34,175 nt of DNA from Kangiellaceae bacterium (lineage in GTDB: Bacteria; Pseudomonadota; Gammaproteobacteria; Enterobacterales; Kangiellaceae): NCBI GenBank assembly GCA_030590405.1, contig JAUUYO010000001.1:1-34175 (forward strand). The letters are read 5' to 3'. A program made the position numbers and the translations under genes. Position 1 is the first letter of the stretch; every line of letters starts with the position of its first letter. The notes beneath the pieces were generated by a model. It had not been told where the DNA came from and made no database searches. It saw only the letters and a list, made by a program, of their open reading frames with translations. Positions 7,542-34,175 of this stretch are shown piece by piece.

Positions 7542-7623
7542 AAAAAAGATGATCTGTTCGTGCTTTTTACACCTTTCGTGGTAAAATTTCCTTCAGTAAC
7601 CTACATAAATCTAGCGAGCAACA

Positions 7624-9276: not shown

Positions 9277-9621
9277 GCGAATGTAAAAGCATTGATAGAG
9301 TTTATTGCTTATGGTATGCGCTATGTCTTCCCTGCTAAGCCAGCAGAGATAACCAGAGGCATTACAACTTCCATTGCTGCGCCAGTGCTTCAAGGGCAAC
9401 TAATGACTTCTGGCGACTTACCACCGATTTGGCCAGACGCAAAAGGTAATACCAAAGGCGTAGCCATAGAACCACTCCACAAAAATATCAGGTTAGCGGT
9501 AAATAATGACGCCGTGTTATATGCCATGTTAGCCCTTACCGACGCTATTCGTATTGGACAGCCAAGAGAGCGAAATTTGGCATTAGATAAACTCAACCTG
9601 TTAATTAAGGAATTACAATGA
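9271..9621 (+). CDS. Hypothetical protein (116 aa), upstream partner of the nucleotidyltransferase; possibly N-terminally truncated
   Basis: ORF ends 25 nt before the NTase gene. Its ATG (9271-9273) lies inside the right IR of the IS, so the start codon is supplied by the element. No family recognised and no HTH visible. Confidence 0.45.
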   Translation: MKANVKALIEFIAYGMRYVFPAKPAEITRGITTSIAAPVLQGQLMTSGDLPPIWPDAKGNTKGVAIEPLHKNIRLAVNNDAVLYAMLALTDAIRIGQPRERNLALDKLNLLIKELQ

Positions 9622-9646
9622 GCGGCAGAATTGATGAGTCAGTTAA

Positions 9647-10342: not shown

Positions 10343-10493
10343 ACCATTGCCTTGGAAAATAAGGTAGTGAATCAGCAAATTAAATAATGGACCAAAGGGA
10401 GCCGTTCATTATCTTACCTCCTTGATTATAGCTTGCACCAAAACACAAGAGCCATTAACCTCAAGCTATCTATTAATTTAATGCTTATATCCT

Positions 10494-11489
10494 ATGTTCC
10501 CATTATCTGTTCTTGACCTGGTCCCCGTAAAAATTGATAAAACACCAACAGAGGCATTAACTGAATCTCTGGAATTAGCGCAACACGCTGATGCACTAGG
10601 CTACTTGCGGTATTGGGTAGCAGAACATCATAATATGGTTGGTATAGCCAGTGCAGCAACTTCTGTTGTTATTGGTTATTTAGCGGCCGGGACTAAAAAC
10701 ATCAGAATTGGAGCGGGCGGCGTCATGCTTCCTAACCATTCGCCTTTAATCATTGCTGAGCAGTTTGGTACTTTAGAGTCACTATATCCTAATAGAATAG
10801 ACCTTGGTTTAGGCAGAGCGCCCGGAACCGATCAATTGACATGGCGAGCTCTTCGTAGAGATCCAAGATCTTCCGAGCAATTTCCACAAGATGTTCAAGA
10901 ACTACAATACTATTTTGCTCCCGTAAAAGAAGGTCAGGCCGTTCAAGCTGTGCCGGGTGGCAACTTAAATGTACCCCTTTGGATGTTAGGTTCCAGTTTA
11001 TTTGGTGCGCAATTGGCGGCTCAACTGGGCTTACCTTATGCCTTTGCTTCACATTTTGCTCCGGCATCCCTTGGTCAAGCTTTTGAACAATACCGCCATC
11101 TATTTAAGCCATCCAGTCAATTGAAAAAACCTTATGCTATGCCATGTATCTCCGTGATTGTGGCAGATACCGACGAGGGGGCTGAACATTTATTCACGAG
11201 TATGCAGCAGCGTTTTTTAGCTATGATTAGAAATCAACGCGGCAAATTATTACCCCCCATTGATGATATTGAAAACTGCTGGAATCCAATGGAAAAAGCA
11301 CAGGTTGAAAGCATGCTAAGTTGTGCTTTTATAGGGAGTCCGACAACCGTGAAAGAGAAACTTCAACACTTTATTAATAGAACTCAAGCCGATGAATTAA
11401 TAGTGAGCGCTGGCATTTTTGATCAAAGCGCCAGATTGTATTCTTACGAATTATTAGCGGACATTGGTAGGCAATTGGTACATGCATAA
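10494..11489 (+). CDS. LLM-class (luciferase-like) flavin-dependent oxidoreductase, YhbW/MsnO8-type (331 aa)
   Basis: Characteristic N-terminus (LSVLDLVPV...[75 protein letters not shown]). Confidence 0.85.
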
Positions 11490-11546
11490 AATTCTTAATA
11501 AGGTTAAGTTTTTCCATGGCTACTAAATTATTGCTCATGCTGAAAA

Positions 11547-13502
11547 TTATTTTTTAGTTTTCTTCTTGTTGTACTTTTTCTTTTTGAATGTCTTTCTTTC
11601 ACCTTCGCCTTTTAGAGCTGAAAACTCACCAGAATCCACCAGTGGTATCAATTCATTTAATCGCCCTAACAATCCACTCATAAAATCTTGATAACTCATC
11701 TGGCTCTGACTGATTGCCGATAATTGTGATTCCCATTGCGCGGTCATATCAGGAAGTGTTGCTGTCTCTGGCAAGCTACTAATCAATTTTCGCCCGATTA
11801 GAGTTGATACGATTTGTTTACCCTGACGTTTTAAGTATTGACGATTAAAAAGTAATTCGATAATACCAGCCCGTGTGGCTTCGGTTCCCAGACCATCGGT
11901 TTCTCTTAATATTTTCCTGATTTCTGGTTTTTTCACATAGCGACCAATACCTGTCATTGCTGCGAGTAGTGTCGCATCAGTAAAGTATTTTGGGGGTGTT
12001 GTTTGTTTATCTAAGAGGCTAGCGTCTTCGCACGTTAATACATCGCCTTTACTGAGTGAAGGCAGTGACTTTTGTAATTCAGAGTCCTGTAATTCTAAAT
12101 TTCCATCTGAATTAAGGTTGTTTTTTTTGCTATCTGACTTTTTCTCAAAGAGTTTTTTCCATCCTGGTTCTAATGGTTGTTTGGCTTTGGCGATGAAATG
12201 ACCGCCCGCTATTTCGAGAGTAATTTGTTTTTCTTCAAATTGGTAGGCGGGATAGAATTGGATTAAGTATTGACGGGCAATCAATTCGTAAATATTCGCT
12301 TCAAAAGGGTTAAGTCGAGTGGCATCGAGTTTTCTAGCGGTTGGAATAATCGCATGGTGCGCTTCAATTTTTTTGTCATTCCAGGTTTTGCTGACAAGTG
12401 ACAGATCCGCTTCGGAAACCGACGTGGATAACTTATTGCAAACAAACGAGATAGCCGAGGTTACGGCATTTGCTTGTTTTAGATGTTCAGTCGGTAAAAA
12501 TCGACAATCTGATCGAGGATAAGTAATTAGCTTATGTTTTTCATAAAGGCTCTGACAAGTATCCAACACTTGTTTAGCGCTCATTGTAAATCGTTTCGCC
12601 GCATCTATTTGCAGCGATGATAGATTATAGGGTAAAGGCGCTGGCTGCTGCTTTCGTTTTTGAAGGCAACTTAAAACAGTTGCAGGTTGACCTTTTATAC
12701 GACGTGCAACATTTTCAGCTAAGGAGCGAGACAACACTCGTCCTTCGTCATCTTGATAGGGAAGGCATGTCTCACTCGGTAGCCACTTGGCTTTAAAAGT
12801 TTCATTTTGAGAAGTCGTTAGATGTGCCCAAACCTGATAATAATCCTTACTAATAAAGTTTTCTATTTCTAAATCTCGTGTTACCACCAATCCTAACAAC
12901 GGCGTTTGTACGCGTCCCACCGATAAAACACCGTTGTAACCCGCTTTGGAACCTTGAATAGTACAAAGTCTTGTCATATTCATACCATAAAGCCAATCCG
13001 CCCGTGAACGCGCTAAGGCTGATGTCGACAAAGGAATAAACTCTTTATTACTTCGCAAAGTATTAAGCGCGCGTGTAACTGCAGGTAAGTTTAAATCATT
13101 TATCAAACAGCGCTGCACCGTCTTTTTTTTTCGGGCAGATACTTTGAAATAGTTTATTACTTCATCCACGAGCAATTGCCCTTCTCGATCAGGATCGCCA
13201 ACATGAACGATTTGTGTCGACTCTTTAACTAATTTACGTAAAACAGTTAATTGCTTGCGGGTTTGAGTTTTAGGAATTAGTTTCCAAACATCCGGGGTAA
13301 TCGGTAAGTGTTCAAGCCGCCACTTCTTATAAGCGTCATCGTAAGCATCTGGTTCGGCTTGTTCAAGCAAGTGACCAATACACCAACTCACTACATCACC
13401 ATTAGCTAAGTGAATACAACCATCTTGCTTTTTGTGAGGTTTCGGTAGTGCCTCAGCAAGCGCACGACCAAGGCTAGGTTTTTCGGCGATGTAGAGAATC
13501 AT
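11547..13502 (-). CDS. topB: DNA topoisomerase III (651 aa)
   Basis: TOPRIM N-terminus (MILYIAEKPSLGRALAEAL...GHLLEQAEPD), DPDREGQ motif, the active-site region ITYPRSDCRFLP, and a Lys-rich C-terminal tail. Confidence 0.93.
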   Translation of the reverse strand: MILYIAEKPSLGRALAEALPKPHKKQDGCIHLANGDVVSWCIGHLLEQAEPDAYDDAYKKWRLEHLPITPDVWKLIPKTQTRKQLTVLRKLVKESTQIVHVGDPDREGQLLVDEVINYFKVSARKKKTVQRCLINDLNLPAVTRALNTLRSNKEFIPLSTSALARSRADWLYGMNMTRLCTIQGSKAGYNGVLSVGRVQTPLLGLVVTRDLEIENFISKDYYQVWAHLTTSQNETFKAKWLPSETCLPYQDDEGRVLSRSLAENVARRIKGQPATVLSCLQKRKQQPAPLPYNLSSLQIDAAKRFTMSAKQVLDTCQSLYEKHKLITYPRSDCRFLPTEHLKQANAVTSAISFVCNKLSTSVSEADLSLVSKTWNDKKIEAHHAIIPTARKLDATRLNPFEANIYELIARQYLIQFYPAYQFEEKQITLEIAGGHFIAKAKQPLEPGWKKLFEKKSDSKKNNLNSDGNLELQDSELQKSLPSLSKGDVLTCEDASLLDKQTTPPKYFTDATLLAAMTGIGRYVKKPEIRKILRETDGLGTEATRAGIIELLFNRQYLKRQGKQIVSTLIGRKLISSLPETATLPDMTAQWESQLSAISQSQMSYQDFMSGLLGRLNELIPLVDSGEFSALKGEGERKTFKKKKYNKKKTKK

Positions 13503-19834: not shown

Positions 19835-19873
19835 CTAGGCTATTGATCTTTCATCGTTCAACAGCCCCTGGTA
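19835..19873. repeat. REP-like palindromic element, copy A (core 19841-19871)
   Basis: Core TATTGATCTTTCATCGTTCAACAGCCCCTGG matches copy C at 29 of 31 positions. Lies between the convergent GGDEF-EAL and globin genes, so it may act as a bidirectional terminator. Confidence 0.75.
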
Positions 19874-19880: not shown

Positions 19881-20318
19881 CTAATAATTATTTGGCTTAG
19901 GAAAATCCAGAATTTTATCTGTCTTATAGCGTTTCTCACACTGCTCCGGCGCATGTTTAACAATTCGATTAAAAAAAGCATCATCGATTCTTTGCCATTT
20001 TTCAATCAATAATTCACTGGCATTGGCTTCCTTGAATGATTCGTCCAATAACACCTGTCGAGCTTCAAATAACGCGTGGGTGATGTACATATGTTTGTGT
20101 GCGGCAGGCGGTGTTTGCCCGCAGTAGAGGTTTTCACCGCCTAAAGCGGCTTGCATAAAGGCGACTTGTTGTCTTTCGATATGCTCTTGAGGAACATCCT
20201 GAAAATAAAGTTTTAGCCAGGGATCTTCATAAATTTTGTCGTAAAATATTTTACTGATTTTTTCAAGCATGGCTGTGCCGCCCATTGCTTTAAAACCTTG
20301 TCTTTTGGTTGATGTCAT
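19881..20318 (-). CDS. Truncated (2-on-2) hemoglobin family protein
   Basis: Size and pattern (IFYDKIYEDPWLKLYF...HIERQQVAFMQAALGG...Y.G....AHKHMYIT...F) resemble group I/II truncated globins, with a candidate proximal His in AHKHM. The true start may be an internal Met (MGGTAMLEK...). Confidence 0.6.
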   Translation of the reverse strand: MTSTKRQGFKAMGGTAMLEKISKIFYDKIYEDPWLKLYFQDVPQEHIERQQVAFMQAALGGENLYCGQTPPAAHKHMYITHALFEARQVLLDESFKEANASELLIEKWQRIDDAFFNRIVKHAPEQCEKRYKTDKILDFPKPNNY

Positions 20319-20530: not shown

Positions 20531-20561
20531 CTGGGGGCTGTTGAATGATGAAAGATCAACA
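20531..20561. repeat. REP-like palindromic element, copy B (inverted orientation)
   Basis: The reverse complement TGTTGATCTTTCATCATTCAACAGCCCCCAG matches copy C at 27 of 31 positions. Lies in the divergent globin/murQ intergenic region. Confidence 0.75.
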
Positions 20562-24345: not shown

Positions 24346-25461
24346 CTACTCAATTGCCACAAAATCGTCAAAATGTTCGATTTTGACTTTATGGTTGGCC
24401 GCTAATTGACCGACTCTATCGAGCGTTTGGATATGCGCAATATTATCCATTTGCCAAAGGTCTTTCGGCTGGACATCGGTTACGCCAATTGCTTGCAGGC
24501 CTTTTTGAGTGAGGTTAGTGTTGTAACGCATATAAGTGAATAGTTTTTCGGCTGTGGGGCCTTTAGTATTAATTAAATCGCCAATTTCCATATCGATCTC
24601 ATCACCACACAAACACTTTCCAAATGACCGGCAAAGAAGATCTTGCTCAACACTTGCTGCAGACATAAGCGCCTGGGGAGTTTGGGTAGCGGTGTAGCCC
24701 AAATGCATATCTTTTGTTGTTATCTCCTTTTTAACTTCTGGTACGTTACCGGTCCCGACCGACACCAGTAACATCTTGTTTTCCCCCGTTGGCCATTGCA
24801 ATTTATAAGGTTCAAGGGTGGCCATTAAAAAAGTCTGAAAAGAGGGGTTGTTGTAGGGGGTGACGCCGCCATCGACAAACAGAAACTTAGTATCGCCAAG
24901 AGTAATGCTTTCTGGCTCAAAAAAGGTAGGTGCTGCGGTACTCGCTCGGACCAGCTGCCAAAGGGGCAGGTTAAGATTACAGTCAGGTAAATTTTTGTCA
25001 TTAAATAGTGCGTTGGGATTATTACTCATCAACCAGGGTGAGCCGGTGGAGGCGTTTCGCATCACTATCATTAACAAGGTTTTGATGGTATTGCTGCCCA
25101 AAGTCTCTGATCTGCCAAACGTATCTTTTAATATTCGAGTGATGGCTTCTGATTGGTATTTAAAATAAAGACGCTTTGAAATGGAGGCTTTTTTGAATAT
25201 CTCCTGACTGCATTCCAGATAAAAGGGACGAATTTCTGCGGTACTCATGCCGGTCGCCAGTGCTGTCGCAAGAATAGCGCCGGTACTTGTGCCTGAAATA
25301 TAGTCAAAGTAATCAGACAGTAATAAATCGGGGTTAGCTGTTGCCTGGCGTAACTGTTGTTCGATTTGCTCTAACATGCCCAGCGCTAACAGGCCTCGGA
25401 TACCGCCGCCATCAATCGTGAGTATTTTTTTCTGTTGCTTGTTTTGCTGTTTAGAAGTCAT
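24346..25461 (-). CDS. Patatin-like phospholipase (371 aa), catalytic motifs intact
   Basis: Oxyanion-hole motif DGGGIRG, nucleophile elbow GTSTG (GxSxG) and catalytic Asp in FVDGGV. GGAG SD about 8 nt upstream of the ATG. Divergent from the TIR operon. Confidence 0.88.
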   Translation of the reverse strand: MTSKQQNKQQKKILTIDGGGIRGLLALGMLEQIEQQLRQATANPDLLLSDYFDYISGTSTGAILATALATGMSTAEIRPFYLECSQEIFKKASISKRLYFKYQSEAITRILKDTFGRSETLGSNTIKTLLMIVMRNASTGSPWLMSNNPNALFNDKNLPDCNLNLPLWQLVRASTAAPTFFEPESITLGDTKFLFVDGGVTPYNNPSFQTFLMATLEPYKLQWPTGENKMLLVSVGTGNVPEVKKEITTKDMHLGYTATQTPQALMSAASVEQDLLCRSFGKCLCGDEIDMEIGDLINTKGPTAEKLFTYMRYNTNLTQKGLQAIGVTDVQPKDLWQMDNIAHIQTLDRVGQLAANHKVKIEHFDDFVAIE

Positions 25462-25636
25462 TGATATTGCTCCAATTATTGTTTCATATCATAGATATTC
25501 GCTGGCTGAAAGGCAAGTTGAGTGTCATCTTTTAGAGCATGTAATAGACTATTTGTCTGTCGCATGAATCTCGAATATGAGCTAAATCTTACTATTCCTT
25601 TCCAATTTGTGTTTTTTCTGATAAAACTAGACCTTA

Positions 25637-25691
25637 GGAGCCTGTCTGAAAATAGGAAACCTACTACGGTCTCTATTCTCAGACAGGCTCC
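25637..25691. promoter_or_regulatory. Long imperfect inverted repeat (19-bp stem with 1 mismatch, 17-nt loop) in the patatin/TIR-operon intergenic region
   Basis: GGAGCCTGTCTGAAAATAG (25637-25655) pairs with CTATTCTCAGACAGGCTCC (25673-25691) at 18 of 19 positions. It directly abuts REP-like copy C. Function unknown. Confidence 0.6.
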
Positions 25692-25728
25692 AGGGGCTGT
25701 TGATCTTTCATAGTTCAACAGCCCCTGG
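25690..25728. repeat. REP-like palindromic element, copy C (complete palindrome)
   Basis: Perfect 14-bp stem CCAGGGGCTGTTGA (25690-25703) / TCAACAGCCCCTGG (25715-25728) with an 11-nt loop TCTTTCATAGT. It shares a 31-nt core with copies A and B. Confidence 0.85.
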
Positions 25729-25785
25729 TATCTAGCGGAATATAATTTCCCTGTTATTTTTACCCTATTGGTAAGGACGATAATA

Positions 25786-27438
25786 ATGATAAATGGCCAG
25801 CTGTTTTCCACCCAGTTCAAACAAAGACTTATGCTCGTTATCTGCTGTATTCTGTTGAGCGCCTGTAGTGGTCATCAAATCAGGCAAGATAAGCTACTAA
25901 AAGCCCATCAGACATTCTATGATGATTATGAACCCAATTTGCAAAAATTTAACCGTGAGATCAATCAGTCATTAACCTTACGCAAGCGTTCAGTGAGTTT
26001 TTACACTCAGGAAATGCTGGAAAGTAAGGCTCAATATTTTGATGCCAAAGATATCGCACAAATTCAATCAACGGTTTCAGAGTATAAACGTAACCGCGAT
26101 GTGCTGCTCAATGATATTGCTTTTCGATACCGCAAACTGATTGAAGATGTTGAGTTGAGGTTTGGTCTAACCGAGCCATCGGGATTGGTGAATTATCCGT
26201 CATTCTTTGCCATTGGTGGAAAAAACATACTGCATGTTAACCCCATGGATAAAAAAGGCAGGCAGTACATCAATGTCTTCAAGTTGGGGTTAGCTGCAAC
26301 TTTGACTTTATACGACAACTTTATCATTGCGATTATGCCGTATCAGGAAAATGGCCATTTCCGGCGAAAAATCAATTACGACAATATTGATAATCAAAAA
26401 ATTATCGAAGATATTTCAGGCAACTTCCGTCGATTAGATAATTATAAAGATACCCTGCGAGTGGTTGAATTTAATGATAACGTCAGAAAATGGGAAAAAC
26501 AAAACATCACCCATGCGATGATTTTAGATAAAGATAACGATTATTTTAATGTCCTCATCGATGGAAGTTATACCAATAAACGGATTAAAGATATTTCCTT
26601 ACTTGATCGGTTGGCCTTCCGCACGGTCAGGTTTAGACGTATTTTGCGAGACACCATGTTTGATTTTGGTAATGAGAGCATGAATTTCGTCAGTAAAATA
26701 TTTGGTAATAGCATGGGACTGATTTCTTCAAGAGAAGGCTATCTTAAAAATATTCCCCGCAGTCATAAAGACAAAATTGAAAGTGAATTAATGCCAGGGG
26801 ATATCTTGCTGGAAAAGACTCCCTTTCGTTTGACTGATCGATTTATCCCAGGCCACTGGGGGCATGTGGCGATTTGGACCGGTTCAGAAAAACAGTTAAA
26901 AGAGCTTGGTATTTGGAATGAGTTGCCCGCTCTCTACAAAAAAGCCCAAACAAGACTAGGTTATCAAGGCCCTTCCTTTCAGCAGCAGATTCGCTCGGGG
27001 CATAAAATTATCGAAGCGCTTCGACCCGGCGTACAGATCAATAGTTTAGAGCATTTTTTAGACATTGATGATATGGCGGTTTTACGTGATAAAAAGGTTA
27101 AGCAAGCGGCAATGAAACGGTATTTAACCAGAGCTTTTGAACAGGTTGGCAAGGAGTACGATTTTAATTTTGATGTTGAAACCGATAAAAAAATTGTTTG
27201 CTCCGAGTTGGCATTTGTTGCTTATGACGATTACCAATGGCCAGTGGCTAAAACCGCAGGTCGTTATACGATTTCCCCCGATCATGTCGGTGAAAAAGCT
27301 AATGGTGAAGGGCCTTTTGAACCGGTAATGTTGTATCATGATGGAAAAATAATAGAGAGTAATATTCAAATTAATTTTAACCATTTGATGAAGGCTGAGT
27401 ATCAACAAGTGTCAGCCGATCTTGTGCCTATTCTATAA
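25786..27438 (+). CDS. Lipoprotein with C-terminal permuted papain-fold (YiiX/YaeF, NlpC/P60-superfamily) domain
   Basis: From the ATG at 25786 (AAGGA about 8 nt upstream) the N-terminus is MINGQLFSTQFKQRLMLVICCILLSAC/SG, i.e. a basic n-region, a hydrophobic core and the lipobox L-S-A-C. The C-terminal third has the His-then-Cys permuted order (GDILLEK...IPGHWGHVAIWTG ... IIEALRPGV ... KIVCSELAFVAYDD). About 300 residues in between are unassigned. The track's TTG at 25768 is less likely. Confidence 0.72.
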   Translation: MINGQLFSTQFKQRLMLVICCILLSACSGHQIRQDKLLKAHQTFYDDYEPNLQKFNREINQSLTLRKRSVSFYTQEMLESKAQYFDAKDIAQIQSTVSEYKRNRDVLLNDIAFRYRKLIEDVELRFGLTEPSGLVNYPSFFAIGGKNILHVNPMDKKGRQYINVFKLGLAATLTLYDNFIIAIMPYQENGHFRRKINYDNIDNQKIIEDISGNFRRLDNYKDTLRVVEFNDNVRKWEKQNITHAMILDKDNDYFNVLIDGSYTNKRIKDISLLDRLAFRTVRFRRILRDTMFDFGNESMNFVSKIFGNSMGLISSREGYLKNIPRSHKDKIESELMPGDILLEKTPFRLTDRFIPGHWGHVAIWTGSEKQLKELGIWNELPALYKKAQTRLGYQGPSFQQQIRSGHKIIEALRPGVQINSLEHFLDIDDMAVLRDKKVKQAAMKRYLTRAFEQVGKEYDFNFDVETDKKIVCSELAFVAYDDYQWPVAKTAGRYTISPDHVGEKANGEGPFEPVMLYHDGKIIESNIQINFNHLMKAEYQQVSADLVPIL

Positions 27439-27458
27439 AAATTAAAATTGGTAAGATT

Positions 27459-29873
27459 ATGTCAGGACAAATTAAAACTTCATCAAATCATCATAAGTAC
27501 CATGCGTTTATTTCTTATCGCCATGCTGACAATAAAGAGCAGGGCAGGCAATGGGCGAGCTGGTTACATCAATCGATAGAAACTTACCAGATCCCGTCAG
27601 ATTTAGTCGGTAGAGTCAATGAACGCGGTGATGTGATCGGGGCGAGAATTTTTCCTGTTTTTAGAGATGAAGAAGAGTTACCCGCCCATGCCGACCTTGG
27701 TAATGCGATTGTTAAAGCACTCGACTCGACTCGTCTGCTAATCATTTTATGTTCGCCCAATGCTGTTGCATCGACTTACGTGGCAGATGAAATCGATTAT
27801 TTTAAAAGTTGTGGTCATTCCGACCGGATCATTGCTGTGATGATCGACGGGGAGCCGAATACCAGTTGGGACAGAAGTAAACTGGCGTCAGGTTTTACCG
27901 TAGAAGATGAGTGTTTCCCCATTCCATTACAGTTTGAATATGACGATAAAGGTCAACGAACTGAAAAACACGCCGAACCGATCGCCGCTGATTTTAGAAT
28001 TAACGACAAGGGTAGAACCAAACAAGGTTGGACAACCTCAAACGCCTATAAAAAACACCTAAAAGAATCAAGCAAATATTCGACTAAAGAAATTAATCAA
28101 TTAGTTGAAAAATATCACCAACAACAGCACTTAATGTTGTTAAAAATAATTGCGGGAATATTAGGTGTTCCATTGAGAGAACTGACTCAAAGGGACAAAG
28201 AATATCAACTTGAATTAGCCCGACAAAAAGCAAAAAAATTAAGGCGCTGGTTAGTTGCCGTTGGTTTATTAGCGATTGTAGCGATCACCGCTGGGATTTT
28301 TGCCTATATTCAAATGAAGCAAGCGGCTAAACAGCGGGATAAAGCAGAAGCGGTTTTATTAGAAGTCAAAAATAATTTAAACTTTATGAATTTTGATTTA
28401 CGTGTCGCTCTGGAAACCTATACGCCGTTATCAGTGCAATTAAAGTTAGATAAACAGATCGACACTGTGCTTGGTACTTTGAATACTTATGGGGATGTTT
28501 CCAGTCAATCAATGGAAGATTCCGCAGCAGTTCTGATCCATAAAGCCAATGTTTTGATTAATGATGGAATGGTTGAATTATCCGAAGTTTTAAAGTTAGG
28601 TTTGGAAGCACAAGCAACCTTTGAAAAACTCATAGTTGATGATCCTGATGGCCAATTTCATCAACGCAATTTAGCGGCTGCAAAAGTTTTAATTAATCGT
28701 GTTTATCAACGCCAGGGAAAAAATAATAAAGCGTTGGAATATTGTATTTCGGCCGAACAGATTATTGAAATACTATTGCAGTCAGATCCTGAAAATATCG
28801 AGTTATTATCCGATTTAGCTGATATTCAAAGTGCCATAGGGGATAACTATTCCAATATGGCTGAGCTGGAAGAAGCTTTAATGTTTTTTCAGCGGGCGCT
28901 GGATAGTCGTTTAAATCTGGCTCAAAGAGAAACAGATAACCTGATCCATCAAGACGCGATTGCTTCTTCCTATTCAGATATTGCCACAGTTTATTTGAGC
29001 CTGAGTGAATATCAATCGGCTGAGAAAAATTACTTATCAGCATTAGAGGTTAGAAAAGATCTTAACAATCAATATCCCAATAATAATAAATGGCTTCATA
29101 ATTTATCAGTAGTGAAAAATAACCTGGCAACAACCTATCTCAGAAAGGGAGATTATGATTTAGCTCTGGTCCACTATACCGCATCTTCTGAAATCGATAA
29201 GCGGATGATTCAAGTTGATCCAGATAATATCTCCTGGGGTAAGAGTTATGTGTCCGGGTTATCTAATCTGGGCGATGTTTACCAAAATGTTGAAAATATT
29301 GAAAAAGCTTTTGAGGCTTATCAGAAAGCATTAAATTATGGCGTCACCATAAAATATCAAGAAAATGATTTTTACTGGCAAACCTTTTTACTCGAGTTGC
29401 AAAACAAAATAGCGCCGATTTTTTTACAAAGCAATTGGGTCCAGGAGGCGATTGAGATATATAAAAAGGCGATTACGCGAAATCAATTATTGATCAATAT
29501 GGTTCCTGATGATTCTGATCTGGTTACCGAATTACTTATTTTGCATTATGAGCTGTCTAAAATATATATTTCAAACGAAGAGTTAGAGCGAGCCTATGAG
29601 ACTCGCACCAGTGCGTTGAAAACTATAGAAAATAGCTTATTAAAATTTCCCGGAAATTCAGAGTTAAAACGAAGCAATATGGTGGTTCATTTTCAACTTT
29701 ACCAAATTAAAAATCAAATGCAGAATTTTCAGGGCGCGCTGGATAGCGCCAGGCAAGCACTCGATATCTTGCTACAATTGAAAAGTGATCATCAATTGTC
29801 AGACAGTGATGCTGGTTTGATCGAGCATATTAACAACGTCATAACTAAACTTAATAACTTATTAGAAGGTTGA
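27459..29873 (+). CDS. TIR domain - single TM helix - TPR-repeat protein (804 aa)
   Basis: N-terminal TIR_2-type motifs: YHAFISYRHADN, FPVFRDEEELP, LLIILCSPNAVASTYVADEI (candidate catalytic Glu111, codon 27789-27791) and AVMIDGEPN. A hydrophobic helix WLVAVGLLAIVAITAGIFAYI (about aa 264-284) is preceded by KAKKLRR. The C-terminal about 500 aa are TPR-like repeats (e.g. LSDLADIQSAIGDNYSNMAELEEALMFFQRALDSR; LHNLSVVKNNLATTYLRKGDYDLALVHY). No Walker A seen. Starts 20 nt after the lipoprotein gene. Confidence 0.88.
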   Translation: MSGQIKTSSNHHKYHAFISYRHADNKEQGRQWASWLHQSIETYQIPSDLVGRVNERGDVIGARIFPVFRDEEELPAHADLGNAIVKALDSTRLLIILCSPNAVASTYVADEIDYFKSCGHSDRIIAVMIDGEPNTSWDRSKLASGFTVEDECFPIPLQFEYDDKGQRTEKHAEPIAADFRINDKGRTKQGWTTSNAYKKHLKESSKYSTKEINQLVEKYHQQQHLMLLKIIAGILGVPLRELTQRDKEYQLELARQKAKKLRRWLVAVGLLAIVAITAGIFAYIQMKQAAKQRDKAEAVLLEVKNNLNFMNFDLRVALETYTPLSVQLKLDKQIDTVLGTLNTYGDVSSQSMEDSAAVLIHKANVLINDGMVELSEVLKLGLEAQATFEKLIVDDPDGQFHQRNLAAAKVLINRVYQRQGKNNKALEYCISAEQIIEILLQSDPENIELLSDLADIQSAIGDNYSNMAELEEALMFFQRALDSRLNLAQRETDNLIHQDAIASSYSDIATVYLSLSEYQSAEKNYLSALEVRKDLNNQYPNNNKWLHNLSVVKNNLATTYLRKGDYDLALVHYTASSEIDKRMIQVDPDNISWGKSYVSGLSNLGDVYQNVENIEKAFEAYQKALNYGVTIKYQENDFYWQTFLLELQNKIAPIFLQSNWVQEAIEIYKKAITRNQLLINMVPDDSDLVTELLILHYELSKIYISNEELERAYETRTSALKTIENSLLKFPGNSELKRSNMVVHFQLYQIKNQMQNFQGALDSARQALDILLQLKSDHQLSDSDAGLIEHINNVITKLNNLLEG

Positions 29874-29910
29874 GCAGGTCAATTTCTTGTAATGGAAAAA
29901 ATCAAAGAGC

Positions 29911-32900
29911 ATGACTGATAGTCAAAAATATAAATACAAAGCATTCATCAGTTACAGTCATCAGGACAGTAAGTGGGGCGATTGGCTACATAAAGCGCTA
30001 GAGTCTTACACCGTCCCGAAAACAATTCGTGGAAAGCCCAATCGAGACGGCAAAGTCCCTGATAAGTTATTTCCTGTGTTTAGAGACCGGGAAGAGCTTC
30101 CTACCGCCACTGATTTAGGGGCGGTGATCTCAAACGCCATACAAAGCTCTGCTTATCTAATTGTTATTTGCTCGCCTCGCTCGGCAAAGTCGATGTGGGT
30201 GAATCAGGAGATCATCAACTTTAAAGCTCTGGGCCGAGAAAATCGGGTGCTGGCAATTATTGTCGATGGTGAGCCGAACGGTGCTGACAAACCGGGAATG
30301 GAAGATATTGAATGTTTTCCTGAGGCATTAAAGTTTATAGTGGGTGATGACGGAAAGCAGACTAGCGAAAGAACCGAGCCCATCGCAGCTGATGCACGCG
30401 AGGGAAAAGACGGTAAGAAAAACGCACTGATTAAGTTACTTTCTGGCCTGCTTGGGGTTAATTATGATGATTTAAAGCAACGTGAAAAAACACGTCAGCG
30501 TCATCGCCGAATGACTTATTTTGTCGCGGCGACTTTATTTGCCGCCGTTGGGATTGGTTATTGGCAGTACGCACAAAAAATTGAGAACCAGCGGTTAATT
30601 GAGGAAAGCCAATCACTCGCCATTCAATCACAAGAAGCTCTAAAACAAGGTGATAGTAAAAGGGCGATATCTCTAGCGCTTAAAGCATTGCCTGAGGATC
30701 TGGACGATGCTGACAGACCTTGGGTAGAGTCAGCCGAAAATGCCCTGTCAAGGGCGATGTATCAACACAAGGAGCAATATTCGTTTAAGGCTCATCAAGG
30801 CAAAGCCACTCATGTGATATCCAGTCCAGATGGTCGTTATTTATTCACTGCTGGTGACGATAGAAAAATAAAAAAGTGGAATGTAAGCCGTCAACAACTG
30901 ATTGAGCAATTTGACAATCATCATGCGCCGTTACTGATTCTCTCCCATCATCCAATATTGCCAATACTGCTTAGCTGGGATGTTGATAGCCATGTGATTA
31001 TTCGCGACTTGGACAGCCATCAAGTTTTGGCAAAATTTGATCACTATGGTACCGATTATAATAAAAATGTTCGTTGGAGCGATGATGGCCAATTGGTTTT
31101 TATTAATCAAACGGCATGGAGCCTGAAAAATAAAACGGAAGTTTCATTAGATTTTTCTAGCACAGCGAGCCAATATGAAAATACCGTTTATCTTCCCATA
31201 CAAGGAGCGACTGACACGGCGATTGTTGATAGCGGCAATATTACCCTGGTTGATTTGGAAAACCGTAAAGAAATTGGCCATTTATCAATCGCTGAATCAG
31301 TTGATAAGCATCCTGGTGATATTGCCTTGATAGCATTGATCGATCAGAAAAAATATTATTTAGCCATCTATCAGGGGGGTGGTGCTTATTTATTTGATGC
31401 TAAAACCTATCAGTTGATCAAAAAATTATCCCACAAGATTGCAATTTTACTCGATTCGGATTGGGAAGATGGTAAGTTACTCCATTTTACCGATTATGAA
31501 TTTCGTCTTTGGGATCCTCAAACGGGTGTCGATCGGCTTTTGCACCCGGAAGCAGAAAGGATCATCATCAGCAAAGGCGTTAGTCTGGTTCAGGGGCGTG
31601 AACATCTCGCCATGATCAAATACAGTGATAAAATTCAGTTATTTGATTTAAAATTGGGACAAGTGACCAAAACTTTTACTAGTGGAAAAAAGCAGGATAG
31701 TTCCTCTTCCATTTATAACCAGATTGAACTGATCCAGGCGGCGAGTTTTAATCCTGACAATGGATTGTTAAATATAGCACTTATTGATGGTCGTATTCGT
31801 GCTTTTTTATTGGCAGATTTAGATAAAAGCTTATCGATTAATTTAAACTCGCCGATCAAAGAACTGATCCATTCTAAAGATCAGCGATTTTATGCCGCCT
31901 ATCTGACCAGCGGTGAGCTAAAACTGATTGATATAGAAAACAAAAAAATATTATCGGTTGCCGAAAATATCTCTTTAAGTGCTTTTACTTTTGCCAATGG
32001 TGGGAATCATCTGGCAATAATATCGGACAATCGAGTGAGCCTTTATGATACCAGTCAGCTGGTTGACTCTACAAAGCCAGTTACTCCGAAAGTCATGTTG
32101 CCCTTTGCGATAGAGGTGTCGCTGAAAGCTAAAATTATTCTTTCAAAAAGTGGTCAAAAAATAGGCTTAGTCAGTAATTATGATCAGCTAGCGATCTATG
32201 ACTTTAAACTCAAACAGTGGTTATCAATGCCAACCAGTAGCGGCTTGCAGGCTATTAATGCTGTGGCTGATCGTTGGCTGGTTAATTCGACGGATTTAAA
32301 ATTAACCAGGTTGGATAATGAGCTTATTCAACAGCATGAATCAGTCCTGCAAGATAAGCAGCTTTATCCTTTTTATCCTGATATTTATAAGTTTGATCAA
32401 ACAATGAATCATTCAATCTGGCTGGACAAAAACGGTCAGGTCGAATATCGAAATTTGAAAAAAAATAAATTGATAGCCAGTGTTGCTTTGGGACTAGGCA
32501 ATTCTTTATTCACCGATCTGAGTGCTAACGGTGAACTGGCACTTATAGGTAATTATCAGGAAATTTTACTGGTCAAAGAAAATGCAGTTAACAGCTCTGT
32601 TAGATTCACTCCCCGATTTAGCGATAACACTTCTTTTTTGTTTGCATCTCTTAATCCGCAAGGGAGCCAATTGACACTGGTAGAAAGTCTGTACAATAAC
32701 GGAGACAATCAACAAATCGTTATTTATCAACTGGATCTGTTTGATGAAAAAAAACCGACGATAGTATGGCAGTCTAAAATACTTGATGGACAGTTTACTG
32801 TTTTGCATCACACAAGTGAGGCGATAGTTTTAAAAAGCGATAAAAAACTGGTACTTTTCAATCGGGCAGAGAGAAGTATAAAACAAGCATCTAAACAGTT

Positions 32901-34175
32901 AGAAAATCTGATTTCTTCGATTGTTCAAGTAGGTCCCAAGGGCAGGCAATATGTGATTTATAAAGATGGTTTCTTATCGTTATATAAATTTAATTCCAAC
33001 CAACCCGTTTGGCGAAAAGAAATATATTCGCAGAACATTCTGTTCTTTAATCAAGATGGTCGCTATTTAACTAATGTGGTTAATCACTCTAATGGCGGAA
33101 AAATTGAGATATTAAATAGTCAAACCGGCGATGCCATCGCTACAAATCAGTTACACACAGGGATCGTTTATGGTTTTGATAGCAACGACAAAATCATTTC
33201 CTGGCAACAAAATATAGCGTTATGCTTGTGGGACTGGCAATCAAATCCTTCGATTGATTATGGTGACCGTTTTGATAAAAAAGCAGAATGCAAACAACAT
33301 TATAATAACAACGGGCAGGTGTTTTCAGTTGGCGATCAGCACTTGGTGATTAACGCTATCAGCCAACATCAATATATTGATCAAGACAAAAGTGAAAAGC
33401 TTGGAAAACTAAGTTGCGATACATCTTTCCTTGTTTACCCTTTAAAAACGAATAGCGAATCGGCGACTTGTATTAAACAGACCGATGGTTTTCAATTTTT
33501 TGACATAAACAAGGGCAGAGTCCATTGGCCATTTTTAAGTGAAGATAAAGTGGTTAGTTTTATCCAAAGCCAAAATGGTCGATATTTACTTAGTCTGGAT
33601 AAAACGGGCACTATTCATTTTGTTGATATTAAAAATCCAGTTCAACCGGGTCAGGCAGGCACAATACTCAATAGCAAAAATATTGCTCGATATCAGATTG
33701 ATGACTCCGGACAATATATGTCTTTAATTAAAAAGGACTGGTTGATTGAACTTTGGGATTTAAAGAACAAAAAGAAGCTGCATAGTACACAACTACCAAG
33801 AAATGAACTAAATTATTTAGGGCCGATGGAACTACTTATCAGTGAAACACAGCAATCTGTATTGATGTTTCAAAGTGGCGATATTTATGTATGGAACCCT
33901 GGTAACAAAATTTCCAACTTCAAAGTGGGGCCGATCAGAGCTGGTTCACCAGTAAGAATCAATTTAGACAACAAACGACTGGTGCAAGTTAATTACGATG
34001 GAATTCATTTATGGGATTGGTTTACCGGAAAAAAACTGATCACCCATCCACTACAAGGATATGCTAAAGGGGCCGATACAATTGATTTTCACCCATCACT
34101 TCATTTGTTTTCGATAACCGCCGATGAGCTAACCTTTTTCAATTTTGATGATGGCGCTCAATCTCACATGATAGC
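29911..34175 (+). CDS. TIR domain - single TM helix - WD40/beta-propeller repeat protein, more than 1421 aa, 3' end beyond the window
   Basis: Not in the ORF track because it has no stop in the window. I translated frame 1 from the ATG at 29911 and saw no stop through 34173. Sequence: MTDSQKYKYKAFISYSHQDSKWGDWLHKAL...FPVFRDREELP...YLIVICSPRSAKSMWVNQEI (candidate catalytic Glu100)...IIVDGEPNG...EPIAADAR...LLSGLLGVNYDDLKQREKTRQRHRR. A TM helix follows (MTYFVAATLFAAVGIGYW, about aa 201-218). Then comes one canonical WD40 unit (AHQGKATHVISSPDGRYLFTAGDDRKIKKWNV) and more than 1000 aa of degenerate beta-propeller-like repeats (e.g. SQNGRYLLSLDKTGTIHFVDIKN; LIELWDLKN; GIHLWDWFTGK). Starts 37 nt after the TIR-TPR gene. 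The first in-frame ATG follows a TAA at 29890-29892. Confidence 0.85.
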   Translation, partial: MTDSQKYKYKAFISYSHQDSKWGDWLHKALESYTVPKTIRGKPNRDGKVPDKLFPVFRDREELPTATDLGAVISNAIQSSAYLIVICSPRSAKSMWVNQEIINFKALGRENRVLAIIVDGEPNGADKPGMEDIECFPEALKFIVGDDGKQTSERTEPIAADAREGKDGKKNALIKLLSGLLGVNYDDLKQREKTRQRHRRMTYFVAATLFAAVGIGYWQYAQKIENQRLIEESQSLAIQSQEALKQGDSKRAISLALKALPEDLDDADRPWVESAENALSRAMYQHKEQYSFKAHQGKATHVISSPDGRYLFTAGDDRKIKKWNVSRQQLIEQFDNHHAPLLILSHHPILPILLSWDVDSHVIIRDLDSHQVLAKFDHYGTDYNKNVRWSDDGQLVFINQTAWSLKNKTEVSLDFSSTASQYENTVYLPIQGATDTAIVDSGNITLVDLENRKEIGHLSIAESVDKHPGDIALIALIDQKKYYLAIYQGGGAYLFDAKTYQLIKKLSHKIAILLDSDWEDGKLLHFTDYEFRLWDPQTGVDRLLHPEAERIIISKGVSLVQGREHLAMIKYSDKIQLFDLKLGQVTKTFTSGKKQDSSSSIYNQIELIQAASFNPDNGLLNIALIDGRIRAFLLADLDKSLSINLNSPIKELIHSKDQRFYAAYLTSGELKLIDIENKKILSVAENISLSAFTFANGGNHLAIISDNRVSLYDTSQLVDSTKPVTPKVMLPFAIEVSLKAKIILSKSGQKIGLVSNYDQLAIYDFKLKQWLSMPTSSGLQAINAVADRWLVNSTDLKLTRLDNELIQQHESVLQDKQLYPFYPDIYKFDQTMNHSIWLDKNGQVEYRNLKKNKLIASVALGLGNSLFTDLSANGELALIGNYQEILLVKENAVNSSVRFTPRFSDNTSFLFASLNPQGSQLTLVESLYNNGDNQQIVIYQLDLFDEKKPTIVWQSKILDGQFTVLHHTSEAIVLKSDKKLVLFNRAERSIKQASKQLENLISSIVQVGPKGRQYVIYKDGFLSLYKFNSNQPVWRKEIYSQNILFFNQDGRYLTNVVNHSNGGKIEILNSQTGDAIATNQLHTGIVYGFDSNDKIISWQQNIALCLWDWQSNPSIDYGDRFDKKAECKQHYNNNGQVFSVGDQHLVINAISQHQYIDQDKSEKLGKLSCDTSFLVYPLKTNSESATCIKQTDGFQFFDINKGRVHWPFLSEDKVVSFIQSQNGRYLLSLDKTGTIHFVDIKNPVQPGQAGTILNSKNIARYQIDDSGQYMSLIKKDWLIELWDLKNKKKLHSTQLPRNELNYLGPMELLISETQQSVLMFQSGDIYVWNPGNKISNFKVGPIRAGSPVRINLDNKRLVQVNYDGIHLWDWFTGKKLITHPLQGYAKGADTIDFHPSLHLFSITADELTFFNFDDGAQSHMI

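What the first reader, a model, noticed from the sequence alone, without database searches (positions are those of the whole stretch)
24346..34175. Candidate uncharacterised envelope-sensing TIR system: lipoprotein permuted-papain + TIR-TM-TPR + TIR-TM-WD40 operon, divergent from a patatin phospholipase
Seen in sequence: three co-oriented genes have 20-nt and 37-nt gaps (25786-27438, 27459-29873, 29911 to beyond 34175). They are read divergently from a patatin-like phospholipase whose start lies 324 nt away. Both large proteins begin with TIR modules that keep the conserved Glu motif (VADEI / VNQEI). Neither contains a STAND/NB-ARC/NACHT P-loop between TIR and the TPR/WD40 repeats; a single transmembrane helix occupies that position instead. 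Established knowledge: bacterial TIR domains with this Glu are NAD+-cleaving or signal-generating enzymes in anti-phage systems (Thoeris ThsB, TIR-STING, TIR-containing Avs/STAND proteins). Patatin phospholipases are membrane-destroying effectors (CapV in CBASS). TPR and WD40 arrays are the usual sensor modules of conflict systems. The YiiX/YaeF permuted NlpC/P60 fold is a thiol hydrolase/acyltransferase fold. Inference: the combination looks like a conflict or abortive-infection system in which sensing occurs outside the cytoplasm and the output is cytoplasmic TIR chemistry, possibly coupled to lipid-targeting enzymes. I do not recognise this combination as a named defence system.
Basis: partly seen in the sequence, partly recalled or inferred. 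Interest (0 to 1): 0.85.

Follow-up and report, generated by a model that had tools for sequence, protein, structure and literature searches.

The report
Membrane-anchored TIR sensors plus patatin lipase
Two inner-membrane proteins carry an NAD-cleaving TIR enzyme inside the cell and variable repeat "antennae" outside it, and they sit beside a membrane-degrading lipase; this layout recurs across bacterial phyla and looks like an uncharacterised, Toll-receptor-like branch of TIR-based (Thoeris-like) immunity.

Summary

The two large proteins belong to a large, unnamed family (about 3,800 clusters at 50% identity). Its conserved N-terminal module is TIR + helical linker + TM. The extracytoplasmic tails are hypervariable (WD40, TPR, ankyrin, FGE-sulfatase).

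In about 38% of 79 loci these genes lie beside predicted nucleotide-signal effectors or sensors: SLOG-SLATT, TrkA_N-RyR, TPR-S or this patatin family. The patatin/TIR-TM pairing recurs in Gamma- and Alphaproteobacteria (a Rhizobium plasmid), Verrucomicrobia and Planctomycetes.

In a close relative the patatin is 90% identical, yet both TIR-TM genes have been replaced. That fits a constant effector with swappable sensors.

The lipoprotein is not a general partner. No TIR-TM gene was found in 80 metagenome loci sampled for its homologues.

Best reading (confidence about 0.5): a Thoeris-like TIR signalling system whose sensors face the periplasm. It is a new variant of a known kind. Function is inferred, not shown.

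The parts
24346..25461 (-). Patatin-like phospholipase (371 aa). It is CapV-like, with an intact oxyanion hole (DGGGIRG) and Ser59/Asp197 dyad. Proposed signal-activated effector.
   Evidence: Pfam Patatin 1.5e-23. PADLOC CBASS 'Effector Phospholipase' PDLC00758 1.5e-48. NCBIfam CBASS_lipase 123.7 bits, below the cut-off of 200. PDB hits: patatin 1oxw and CapV 8zr9, about 1e-23. Motifs. Family alignment A4 shows 53-56% identity across phyla.
25462..25785 (.). Divergent intergenic region (324 nt) between the patatin and the lipoprotein gene. It holds two strong hairpins at 25637-25691 and 25690-25728 that look like a REP-type repeat.
   Evidence: Inverted repeats of 19 and 17 bp. One arm recurs at 19858 and 20531. 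The repeat is absent from the equivalent region of relative L085.
25786..27438 (+). Lipoprotein (550 aa from the ATG). It has a signal peptide plus lipobox LLSAC, a helical N-terminal domain of about 330 aa with no recognised family, and a C-terminal permuted NlpC/P60 (C92, YiiX/YaeF) thiol hydrolase domain (nt about 26788-27345).
   Evidence: Pfam PF05708 2.5e-25. Invariant His and Cys across phyla (A2). AF2 model matches YiiX 2if6 only. Co-oriented with the next gene, 20 nt upstream of it.
27459..29873 (+). TIR-TM-TPR protein (804 aa, 'type A' module). TIR domain at about residues 14-190 (nt 27498-28028) with catalytic Glu111 (nt 27789-27791); helical linker; TM at residues 264-286 (nt 28248-28316); extracytoplasmic TPR array to the C-terminus.
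   Evidence: The N-module is 60-73% identical to homologues in many genera. The tail is about 25% identical or replaced.
29911..34175 (+). TIR-TM-WD40 protein ('type B' module, over 1421 aa, cut by the window end). TIR at about residues 9-165 with Glu100 (nt 30208-30210); TM at residues 201-222 (nt 30511-30576); extracytoplasmic beta-propeller/WD40 region from about residue 283.
   Evidence: Type B modules are the ones found beside patatin plus SLOG-SLATT in other phyla.

Best explanation
The locus encodes a Thoeris-like, TIR-based conflict (most likely anti-phage, abortive-infection) module with a receptor-type sensor. Two bitopic inner-membrane proteins place variable TPR or WD40 arrays in the periplasm and a conserved TIR domain in the cytoplasm.

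Inferred mechanism. Binding of an extracytoplasmic cue clusters the receptors. The cue could be a phage or envelope-derived ligand, or envelope damage. The juxtamembrane helices bring the TIR domains together and complete the composite TIR active site (Glu111/Glu100). NAD+ is then cleaved into a cADPR-type signal, and NAD+ may also be depleted. The signal activates dedicated effectors encoded nearby. Here the candidate effector is the CapV-like patatin phospholipase, which would degrade the membrane. In other genomes the candidates are SLOG-SLATT pores, TrkA_N-RyR proteins or TPR-S modules.

The two TIR-TM genes act as interchangeable sensors with different specificities, like multiple thsB genes beside one effector. 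The C92 lipoprotein is co-transcribed here but is probably an accessory or bystander envelope enzyme, not a core part.

Shown: domain architecture, topology signals, conservation of the catalytic Glu, family size, gene-neighbourhood associations, and sensor turnover. Inferred: NADase or signal chemistry, the trigger, patatin activation, and the immune role.
For: (1) The TIR fold and catalytic Glu are conserved in 87 of 88 modules. ThsB_TIR Pfam hits are above cut-off.
(2) Single TM with the positive-inside rule gives cytoplasmic TIR and periplasmic repeats. The same layout is seen in homologues from other phyla.
(3) The family is large. A1 profile hits 3,824 representatives at E<=1e-30, always at the N-terminus.
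(4) The enzymatic module is conserved and the sensor tail is hypervariable. N-module median identity is 66%. The tail is alignable in only 39 of 120 homologues, at 25%. Tails are WD40, TPR, ankyrin, FGE-sulfatase or unknown. Tandem paralogues are common.
(5) In 30 of 79 loci, nucleotide-signal sensor or effector families lie within 4 genes: SLOG-SLATT 15, TrkA_N-RyR 8, patatin 6, TPR-S 5. TIR + SLATT is the experimentally verified type VII Thoeris.
(6) The patatin/TIR-TM association recurs in independent lineages: L085 (Gammaproteobacteria), L253 (R. leguminosarum conjugative plasmid carrying SLATT, muramidase, patatin at 51% identity, TPR-S, TIR-TM-TPR, TIR-TM and a split TIR + TM-WD40), L058/L062 (Verrucomicrobia), L067, and L078 (Planctomycetes, same divergent arrangement). 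The patatin goes with type B modules. The same patatin family lies among three TIR genes plus TPR-S in L252.
(7) In relative L085 the core genes are 87-92% identical and the patatin 90%. Both TIR-TM genes are replaced, and only the TIR modules align, at 25-39%.
(8) No CD-NTase is encoded adjacent to the patatin. Its neighbours are alr and the C92 gene, and the other window ORFs annotated (16 of 20 at or above 100 aa between 1 and 24288) are housekeeping. The patatin is therefore not a CBASS effector here.
Against: There is no experimental evidence for any member. The patatin has no recognised nucleotide-binding add-on domain. It evolves at the rate of flanking core genes and sits in conserved synteny next to alr, which is atypical for mobile defence islands. 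In 49 of 79 TIR-TM loci no recognised partner is nearby. Immediate neighbours rarely match known defence models. The most consistent neighbour of this patatin family in sampled loci is TPR-S rather than TIR-TM. The patatin might therefore answer to a different signal source. A 'SLOG Patatin' candidate Thoeris gave no protection in E. coli. The window ends inside the second TIR gene, so the full system cannot be seen.
Confidence: 0.5

Rival explanations
1. Self-contained sensor-effector. Each TIR-TM-repeat protein is a one-protein abortive-infection device. Ligand binding outside triggers TIR oligomerisation, and NAD+ depletion itself is the lethal output, as in TIR-STAND/Avs, TIR-SAVED or SPARTA. 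The patatin is functionally unrelated or belongs to a separate TPR-S-based module.
For: Most TIR-TM loci (49 of 79) have no recognisable effector partner within 4 genes, and many sit among housekeeping genes. In other loci the patatin's steadiest partner is TPR-S and not TIR-TM. The structural matches include NAD+-depleting TIRs such as AbTir, SARM1 and SPARTA.
Against: SLOG-SLATT, TrkA_N-RyR, TPR-S and patatin recur directly beside TIR-TM genes in several phyla. This is hard to explain if no diffusible signal is made. One conserved patatin beside swappable TIR-TM genes mirrors effector/ThsB logic.
Confidence: 0.22
2. Non-immune envelope signalling or housekeeping. The TIR-TM proteins are receptors for environmental, cell-cell or cell-envelope cues, for example in particle-attached or multicellular marine bacteria. 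The patatin and C92 lipoprotein are lipid or envelope-maintenance enzymes that happen to be neighbours.
For: The locus sits in conserved core synteny (globin-murQ-nhaC-alr). The patatin and C92 are strongly conserved, at 53-56% and 36-47% identity across phyla. Few known defence genes are nearby. No homologue was found in 50,697 phage records.
Against: TIR-TM genes are completely replaced between close relatives. Sensor tails are shuffled. The recurrent partners (SLATT, SLOG, TPR-S, trypsin, extra TIRs) are typical of conflict systems. The cluster is present on a conjugative plasmid. Distribution is patchy, with multiple copies per genome.
Confidence: 0.15
3. The C92 lipoprotein is an obligatory periplasmic component (co-sensor or envelope-degrading effector) acting with the two TIR-TM proteins and the patatin.
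For: The gap to the TIR-TM-TPR gene is 20 nt. The same order C92->TIR-TM is seen in L085 (40-nt gap) and in L083/L084, which lie in a different chromosomal context. The patatin and C92 lie next to each other, divergently arranged, in four fetched loci (L085, L087, L089, L095) and, judging by matching contig lengths, share a contig in about five further cases. Other cell-wall hydrolases occupy a similar position in rhizobial clusters: a muramidase in L253 and GH108 in L254.
Against: None of 82 TIR-TM loci outside the close lineage has a C92 gene. None of 80 metagenome C92 loci has a TIR-TM gene. C92 neighbourhoods are otherwise unrelated, for example LPS core genes in L086. Close relatives L089 and L095 have patatin<->C92 without TIR-TM. 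In L083 the gap is 538 nt.
Confidence: 0.1

Closest known systems
Thoeris defence systems, especially type VII (ThsB TIR + SLATT effector ThsH, cADPR signal) and the predicted but unverified 'SLOG Patatin' type (Yirmiya et al., bioRxiv 10.64898/2025.12.03.692087)
   Same: A TIR protein with the catalytic Glu lies next to a membrane-attacking effector (SLATT pore or patatin). Several different TIR genes can sit beside one effector. ThsB_TIR Pfam matches.
   Different: Known ThsB proteins are small and soluble, and sense cytoplasmic cues. Here the TIR is the N-terminal module of an 800 to over 1400 aa bitopic membrane protein with periplasmic WD40 or TPR arrays. The patatin lacks a fused SLOG domain. 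No PADLOC or NCBIfam Thoeris model hits. That study discarded stand-alone TIR proteins, and its text mentions no WD40-bearing or membrane-anchored ThsB.
CBASS phospholipase effector CapV
   Same: Patatin fold of similar size with the same catalytic motifs. The best PADLOC hit is the CBASS phospholipase effector, and the PDB hits include CapV.
   Different: No CD-NTase cyclase is encoded beside the patatin (neighbours alr and C92), and none among the window ORFs annotated. The score is below the NCBIfam CBASS_lipase cut-off (123.7 against 200). This is a separate, highly conserved patatin family of about 370 aa whose neighbours are TIR and TPR-S genes.
BcTir/Tpr anti-phage operon and the 'Patatin-Tpr assemblies' noted with it (bioRxiv 10.1101/2023.05.26.542521); TPR-S sensor domain (Pfam PF20308)
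   Same: This patatin family is next to TPR-S proteins in L085, L088, L089, L090, L095, L252 and L253, often together with TIR genes.
   Different: No TPR-S gene is visible inside the window, which ends too early. The TPR array of the window protein consists of ordinary TPR_1/2/12 repeats placed outside the membrane, not TPR-S.
Animal Toll-like receptors (analogy only)
   Same: A single-pass membrane receptor with an extracellular solenoid or repeat ectodomain and a cytoplasmic TIR domain. Signalling presumably works by induced proximity of the TIR domains.
   Different: The orientation is reversed (TIR at the N-terminus). The ectodomains are WD40 or TPR rather than LRR. The TIR keeps the NADase Glu, so the output is probably enzymatic rather than scaffolding. 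No evidence for common descent of the whole architecture.
TIR-STAND/Avs and the multicellular-bacteria conflict systems of Kaur et al. 2020 (PMC7159879)
   Same: An N-terminal TIR effector with C-terminal WD40, TPR or FGS sensor repeats. Strain-level variability. Co-occurrence with SLATT, trypsin and TPR-S components.
   Different: There is no NTPase switch (no Walker A motif and no NACHT or NB-ARC hit). A transmembrane helix takes its place, so the sensor is in another compartment.
Envelope-sensing defence systems (Kiwa, Zorya, SNIPE)
   Same: The concept of a membrane-embedded sensor that detects phage entry at the envelope and activates a cytoplasmic effector.
   Different: The proteins are unrelated, and none of those systems uses TIR chemistry.

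Membership tests
Thoeris (TIR-signalling defence) | A TIR-domain protein (ThsB) with the conserved catalytic Glu | tested here: met
   TIR_2 and ThsB_TIR hits are above cut-off in both proteins. The TIR fold was confirmed. The Glu is conserved in 87 of 88 modules.
Thoeris (TIR-signalling defence) | An adjacent effector gene carrying a signal-binding domain (SLOG, Macro, SLATT and others) | tested here: inconclusive
   The neighbour is a CapV-like patatin without a recognisable sensor domain. In homologous loci, SLOG-SLATT, TPR-S and TrkA_N-RyR genes are adjacent.
Thoeris (TIR-signalling defence) | Match to curated Thoeris models (PADLOC 2.0, NCBIfam) | tested here: not met
   There was no Thoeris model hit. 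The only hit was a marginal SAVED_TIR match at E about 1e-3.
Thoeris (TIR-signalling defence) | Infection-dependent production of an NAD+-derived signal and phage protection | not testable with these tools
   This needs biochemistry and phage assays.
CBASS | A CD-NTase cyclase encoded with the effector | tested here: not met
   The patatin's neighbours are alr and the C92 gene. The remaining window genes annotated (16 of 20 ORFs at or above 100 aa between 1 and 24288) are housekeeping.
CBASS | A CapV equivalog (NCBIfam NF041079 at or above 200 bits) | tested here: not met
   The score is 123.7 bits. The PADLOC effector HMM does match at 1.5e-48.
TIR-STAND / Avs / NLR-like | A central STAND NTPase (NACHT, NB-ARC or nSTAND) with a P-loop | tested here: not met
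   No such Pfam hit and no Walker A motif. A TM helix occupies that position.
TIR-TM-repeat family (defined here) | An N-terminal TIR, a helical linker, a single TM, and a variable C-terminal extracytoplasmic domain | tested here: met
   Alignment A1, the structural model, TM analysis, and 3,824 representatives at E<=1e-30 with the module always N-terminal.
Peptidase C92 (YiiX/YaeF permuted NlpC/P60) | A permuted catalytic core with the His before the Cys, and a match to PF05708 | tested here: met
   PF05708 at 89.9 bits against a cut-off of 27. Invariant GHWGH and VCSE motifs. The fold matches YiiX 2if6.
Patatin-like phospholipase | Oxyanion hole GGGxRG, nucleophile GxSxG, and the Asp of DGG | tested here: met
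   DGGGIRG at 17, GTSTG at 57 and DGG at 197. All are invariant in A4.

The most novel reading that the evidence does not exclude
Bacteria possess a large family of genuine 'Toll-like' transmembrane receptors. These are single-pass proteins that read extracytoplasmic ligands with rapidly diversifying WD40, TPR, ankyrin or FGS ectodomains. The ligands could be phage particles or ejection proteins, competitor toxins, or envelope damage. The receptors transmit across the membrane by induced TIR proximity and convert NAD+ into a second messenger. That messenger switches on modular killers: a patatin lipase, SLATT pores, TPR-S modules and possibly wall hydrolases. This would be the first TIR/Thoeris-type pathway triggered from outside the cytoplasm, before or at genome entry.
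Probability: 0.3. Interest if true: 0.85.

Novelty: new variant of a known kind. Interest (0 to 1): 0.66.

Why it matters
All characterised bacterial TIR systems sense infection inside the cytoplasm. A receptor-type TIR protein with its sensor in the periplasm would add a new input layer to TIR immunity, namely surveillance at the envelope. It would be the closest functional analogue so far of animal Toll-like receptors in bacteria. It would also give a tractable model of how TIR enzymes are switched on across a membrane without an NTPase.

The family is large: thousands of clusters in marine Gammaproteobacteria, including Vibrio cholerae and Pseudoalteromonas, as well as rhizobial plasmids, Verrucomicrobia and Planctomycetes. 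Current defence-finding pipelines largely miss it, because many members are stand-alone genes outside classical defence islands.

The analysis also links a highly conserved orphan patatin family and TPR-S modules to TIR signalling. This suggests new effector-signal pairs to test.

Tried and rejected
(1) C92 lipoprotein as a core partner: rejected. There was no C92 homologue in 82 TIR-TM loci, no TIR-TM gene in 80 metagenome C92 loci, and no conserved C92 neighbourhood. The structure model added nothing beyond similarity to YiiX.

(2) CBASS: rejected. No cyclase is encoded beside the patatin or among the window ORFs annotated, and the score is below the NCBIfam cut-off.

(3) The proteins upstream of TIR genes in L001 (536 aa) and L002 (328 aa) as C92 analogues: no similarity.

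(4) Viral contigs and phage genomes: the patatin hits in IMG/VR are distant patatins at 35% identity or less (apart from one 81-residue fragment at 48%) and were not analysed further. The TIR-TM module is absent from 50,697 phage records.

(5) Rfam scan of the window: no hits. The intergenic hairpins are a REP-like repeat, not a known RNA.

(6) PDB sequence searches for the TPR-S proteins and the full-length TIR-TM-TPR protein gave only generic TPR hits. The best TIR sequence hit, 9m0n ('Tetratricopeptide repeat protein'), could not be traced in the literature.

(7) Two papers most likely to mention this architecture could not be read because they are not held: Burroughs et al. 2015 (NAR) and Burroughs & Aravind 2020 (J Bacteriol). 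Prior description there cannot be excluded.

(8) The source organism was not identified. The nearest named relatives are Kangiellaceae and Cocleimonas MAG proteins at 76-79% identity.

Full report
OBSERVATION. The ORF listing and translation give four genes:
- a 371-aa ORF on the minus strand (24346-25461);
- a lipoprotein gene (ATG at 25786, ending 27438; lipobox LLSAC);
- an 804-aa ORF (27459-29873);
- an ORF from 29911 that is still open at the window end (1421 codons).

The gaps are 20, 37 and 324 nt.

Pfam identifies Patatin (1.5e-23) and Peptidase_C92 (2.5e-25). It finds TIR_2/ThsB_TIR plus many TPR families in the third protein, and TIR_2/ThsB_TIR plus WD40/beta-propeller families in the fourth.

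The Glu motifs YVADEI (E111) and WVNQEI (E100) are in the position of the SARM1/plant-TIR catalytic Glu (established knowledge). Their codons were verified. No protein has a Walker A motif or a STAND hit.

Each TIR protein has a single hydrophobic helix with 6-7 Lys/Arg on its N-terminal flank. The TIR domain must therefore be cytoplasmic and the repeats extracytoplasmic.

An AlphaFold model of residues 1-300 (pLDDT 85.5) shows a TIR fold, two short helices and one continuous helix of about 60 residues. Its PDB matches are plant TIRs, AbTir, ThsB, SARM1 and SPARTA TIRs.

The rest of the window is ordinary core chromosome: Rnf, MetG, Mrp, Dcd, TopB, a GGDEF-EAL protein, a globin, MurQ, NhaC and Alr. 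GC content is unremarkable.

THE TIR-TM-REPEAT FAMILY. A search with the TIR-TM-TPR protein showed that its first 280 residues or so are 60-73% identical to many proteins. These come from Pseudoalteromonas, Glaciecola, Marinobacter, Vibrio cholerae, Marinicella and Kangiellaceae, and from Burkholderiales and Desulfuromonas MAGs. The C-terminal parts differ: WD40, TPR, ankyrin, FGE-sulfatase, or nothing recognisable.

Quantitatively, the N-module has a median identity of 66% among the 120 best hits. Only 39 have an alignable TPR tail, at 25% identity.

An alignment of the module (A1) used as a profile finds 3,824 representatives of 50%-identity clusters at E<=1e-30. The module is always at the N-terminus of proteins of 340-1950 aa.

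A scan of one genome per species returned 77 loci. They come from Alteromonadales, Kangiellaceae, Marinobacter, Alphaproteobacteria, Verrucomicrobia and Planctomycetes, often with several loci per genome.

Two module subtypes exist. Type A is represented by the window's TPR protein (54 genes) and type B by its WD40 protein (28 genes). The catalytic Glu column is Glu in 87 of 88 modules.

No homologue was found in phage genomes. No PADLOC or NCBIfam defence model recognises these proteins.

NEIGHBOURS. I called ORFs in all loci and clustered them. I annotated the recurrent clusters and the 112 immediate neighbours. Several families recur directly beside TIR-TM genes:
- SLOG-SLATT fusions and other SLATT/DUF4231 proteins;
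- proteins of 630-757 aa with TrkA_N (an NAD-binding Rossmann domain) and RyR domains;
- TPR-S proteins, often in a triad with proteins of about 510 aa and about 290 aa;
- homologues of the window's patatin.

At least one of these lies within four genes in 30 of 79 loci. Otherwise the neighbours are heterogeneous, and known defence genes are rare.

SLOG, SLATT and TPR-S are the domains that sense or respond to TIR-made nucleotides in Thoeris-type systems. TIR + SLATT is the experimentally verified type VII Thoeris, which uses cADPR. 'SLOG Patatin' is one of the predicted effector types.

THE PATATIN LINK. Patatin homologues lie beside TIR-TM genes in L058 and L062 (Verrucomicrobia), L067, and L078 (Phycisphaerales). 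L078 has the same divergent arrangement as the window. In each case a SLOG-SLATT gene is also present.

Independent protein searches of the plasmid collection gave the same record as the best hit for both the patatin (51% identity) and the TIR-TM module (45%). It is a conjugative R. leguminosarum plasmid. About 18 kb of that plasmid encode a SLATT protein, a muramidase with a PG-binding domain, the patatin, a TPR-S protein, a TIR-TM-TPR protein, a second TIR-TM protein, and a small TIR followed by a TM-WD40-TPR protein. This kit resembles the window's closely.

The patatin itself belongs to a strongly conserved family of about 370 aa, at 53-56% identity across phyla (A4). In an unrelated 4.1-Mb genome it sits between TIR-FGE-sulfatase and PCTIR on one side and TPR-S, another TIR and an nSTAND1-WD40 protein on the other.

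Patatin-associated TIR-TM genes are almost all type B, like the window's WD40 protein.

In the window's own lineage the patatin is also found beside the TPR-S triad without TIR-TM genes (L088, L089, L090, L095). 'Patatin-Tpr assemblies' were noted earlier in a preprint on an anti-phage TIR/TPR operon. TPR-S is therefore the patatin's steadiest neighbour, and TIR-TM genes are one of several TIR-type partners.

TURNOVER. The best comparator is L085. It shares the globin-murQ-nhaC-alr synteny, and its core proteins are 87-92% identical to the window's. Its patatin is 90% and its C92 protein 77% identical. The two genes after C92 are again TIR-TM proteins, but different ones. Only the TIR modules align, at 25-39% identity. 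A convergent TPR-S triad follows them.

A conserved effector gene next to a slot in which sensor genes are exchanged between close relatives is what is seen for ThsA/ThsB. It argues for a conflict function.

THE LIPOPROTEIN. The C92 protein belongs to a very well conserved full-length family with 2,389 hits. The catalytic His and Cys are invariant from Gammaproteobacteria to Marinimicrobia and Halobacteriovorax.

It precedes TIR-TM genes only in three places: the window, L085, and L083/L084. The last is in a different chromosomal context, with a 538-nt gap and no patatin. It stands without them in L086 (LPS core genes), L089 and L095. None of 80 metagenome loci has a TIR-TM gene, and there is no conserved neighbourhood. 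None of the 82 TIR-TM loci fetched independently has a C92 gene.

Within the close lineage it lies next to the patatin, divergently arranged, in four fetched loci (L085, L087, L089, L095). About five further contig-length matches suggest the pair shares a contig more widely. I therefore treat it as co-transcribed here but not as a defining component.

A speculative alternative is that wall hydrolases are optional effectors. It rests only on a muramidase in L253 and a GH108 enzyme in L254 occupying comparable positions.

MECHANISM AND RIVALS. The best-supported reading is a Thoeris-like signalling module with receptor-type sensors:
1. The periplasmic TPR or WD40 arrays bind a cue.
2. The receptors cluster.
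3. The cytoplasmic TIR domains assemble their composite active site.
4. NAD+ is converted to a cADPR-type messenger, and NAD+ may also be depleted.
5. The messenger activates the patatin, or SLATT or TPR-S modules in other genomes.

The architecture, topology signals, conservation, associations and turnover are shown. The chemistry, the trigger and the outcome are inferred. I give this reading 0.5.

The main rival (0.22) is a self-contained NAD+-depleting receptor. It is favoured by the many solitary family members. A non-immune envelope-signalling role (0.15) is favoured by the core-like synteny and the paucity of known defence neighbours.

COMPARISON AND NOVELTY. The locus works like Thoeris but fails curated Thoeris models. 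It also differs in that the TIR protein is a large bitopic membrane receptor.

It is not CBASS: there is no cyclase and the score is below the CapV cut-off. It is not a TIR-STAND protein: there is no NTPase. Its topology parallels animal Toll-like receptors only by analogy.

The literature I could search describes envelope-sensing systems (Kiwa, Zorya, SNIPE) and many new Thoeris types. It describes no TIR protein with a periplasmic sensor. Two Aravind-lab papers that might mention the architecture were not available.

I rate it a new variant of a known kind, with interest 0.66. The family is large, widespread and untested. If the model holds, it would put the input of TIR immunity outside the cytoplasm.

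Noticed in passing
window 25637-25728; also 19858-19871 and 20531-20544: Two adjacent strong hairpins (19-bp and 17-bp stems) lie in the patatin/C92 divergent intergenic region. One arm (CCAGGGGCTGTTGA) recurs on both sides of the globin gene (19881-20318). This looks like a REP-type extragenic palindrome. It is absent from the same intergenic region in relative L085, and there is no Rfam match.
   Followed up: partly
window 8371-9255: An IS1595-family transposase (DDE_Tnp_IS1595 plus a zinc ribbon) is embedded among housekeeping genes (dcd upstream, topB downstream). It is the only mobile-element gene seen in the window.
   Followed up: no
L085 18366-21653; L088 11129-14727; L089 2726-6465; L090 3368-6999; L095 12202-15959; L005 11340-14911: A conserved three-gene 'TPR-S triad' (about 510 aa with a weak CorA-like C-terminus, about 290 aa with no family, and TPR-S/MAP3K_TRAF_bd). 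It often has a divergent SLATT-like protein of 640-673 aa and trypsin-like proteases. It accompanies this patatin family and sometimes TIR-TM genes. None of its parts has a PADLOC model.
   Followed up: partly
L009, L017, L027, L029, L031, L041, L055 (for example L027 13534-15429): Proteins of 630-757 aa combining a TrkA_N NAD-binding Rossmann domain and a RyR domain lie directly next to TIR-TM genes in about 8-12 loci. They are candidate sensors or effectors for an NAD-derived signal and are not represented in PADLOC.
   Followed up: partly
L253 (CP050566.1 35.9-53.6 kb) 8800-9651; L254 14505-15125: Peptidoglycan hydrolases sit inside or near TIR-TM/patatin clusters on rhizobial plasmids: a muramidase with PG_binding, and a GH108 enzyme. 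The position is comparable to that of the NlpC/P60-type lipoprotein in the window. This may be a holin/endolysin-like effector logic with SLATT. It is speculative.
   Followed up: no
L253 22897-25640: A 127-aa TIR-only ORF is followed 35 nt later by a TM-WD40-TPR protein of 774 aa. This looks like a split or frameshifted TIR-TM-WD40 gene.
   Followed up: no
L003/L004 (Vibrio cholerae contigs): The V. cholerae TIR-TM-TPR homologue (1045 aa) ends a long co-oriented gene string (Lcl_C-domain proteins, an AAA ATPase, HD_4 and Sel1/TPR proteins). The string lies next to a T6SS auxiliary cluster (Hcp, VgrG, DUF4123, VasX). This context differs from the window's.
   Followed up: no
L002 (Marinicella sp. 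W31) 615-12940: A dense TIR island: SEFIR/TIR, a small ThsB_TIR protein, a TPR-S-trypsin fusion, TIR-TM-WD40 (1389 aa), a 328-aa unknown protein and TIR-TM (979 aa), followed by a transposase. It is a good second model locus.
   Followed up: no
L018-L020, L022 (for example L018 13175-15127): In Pseudidiomarina and Shewanella the partner downstream of the TIR-TM gene is a SLATT_1 domain fused to a C-terminal alpha/beta-hydrolase (lipase- or thioesterase-like). This is another membrane- or lipid-directed effector variant.
   Followed up: no
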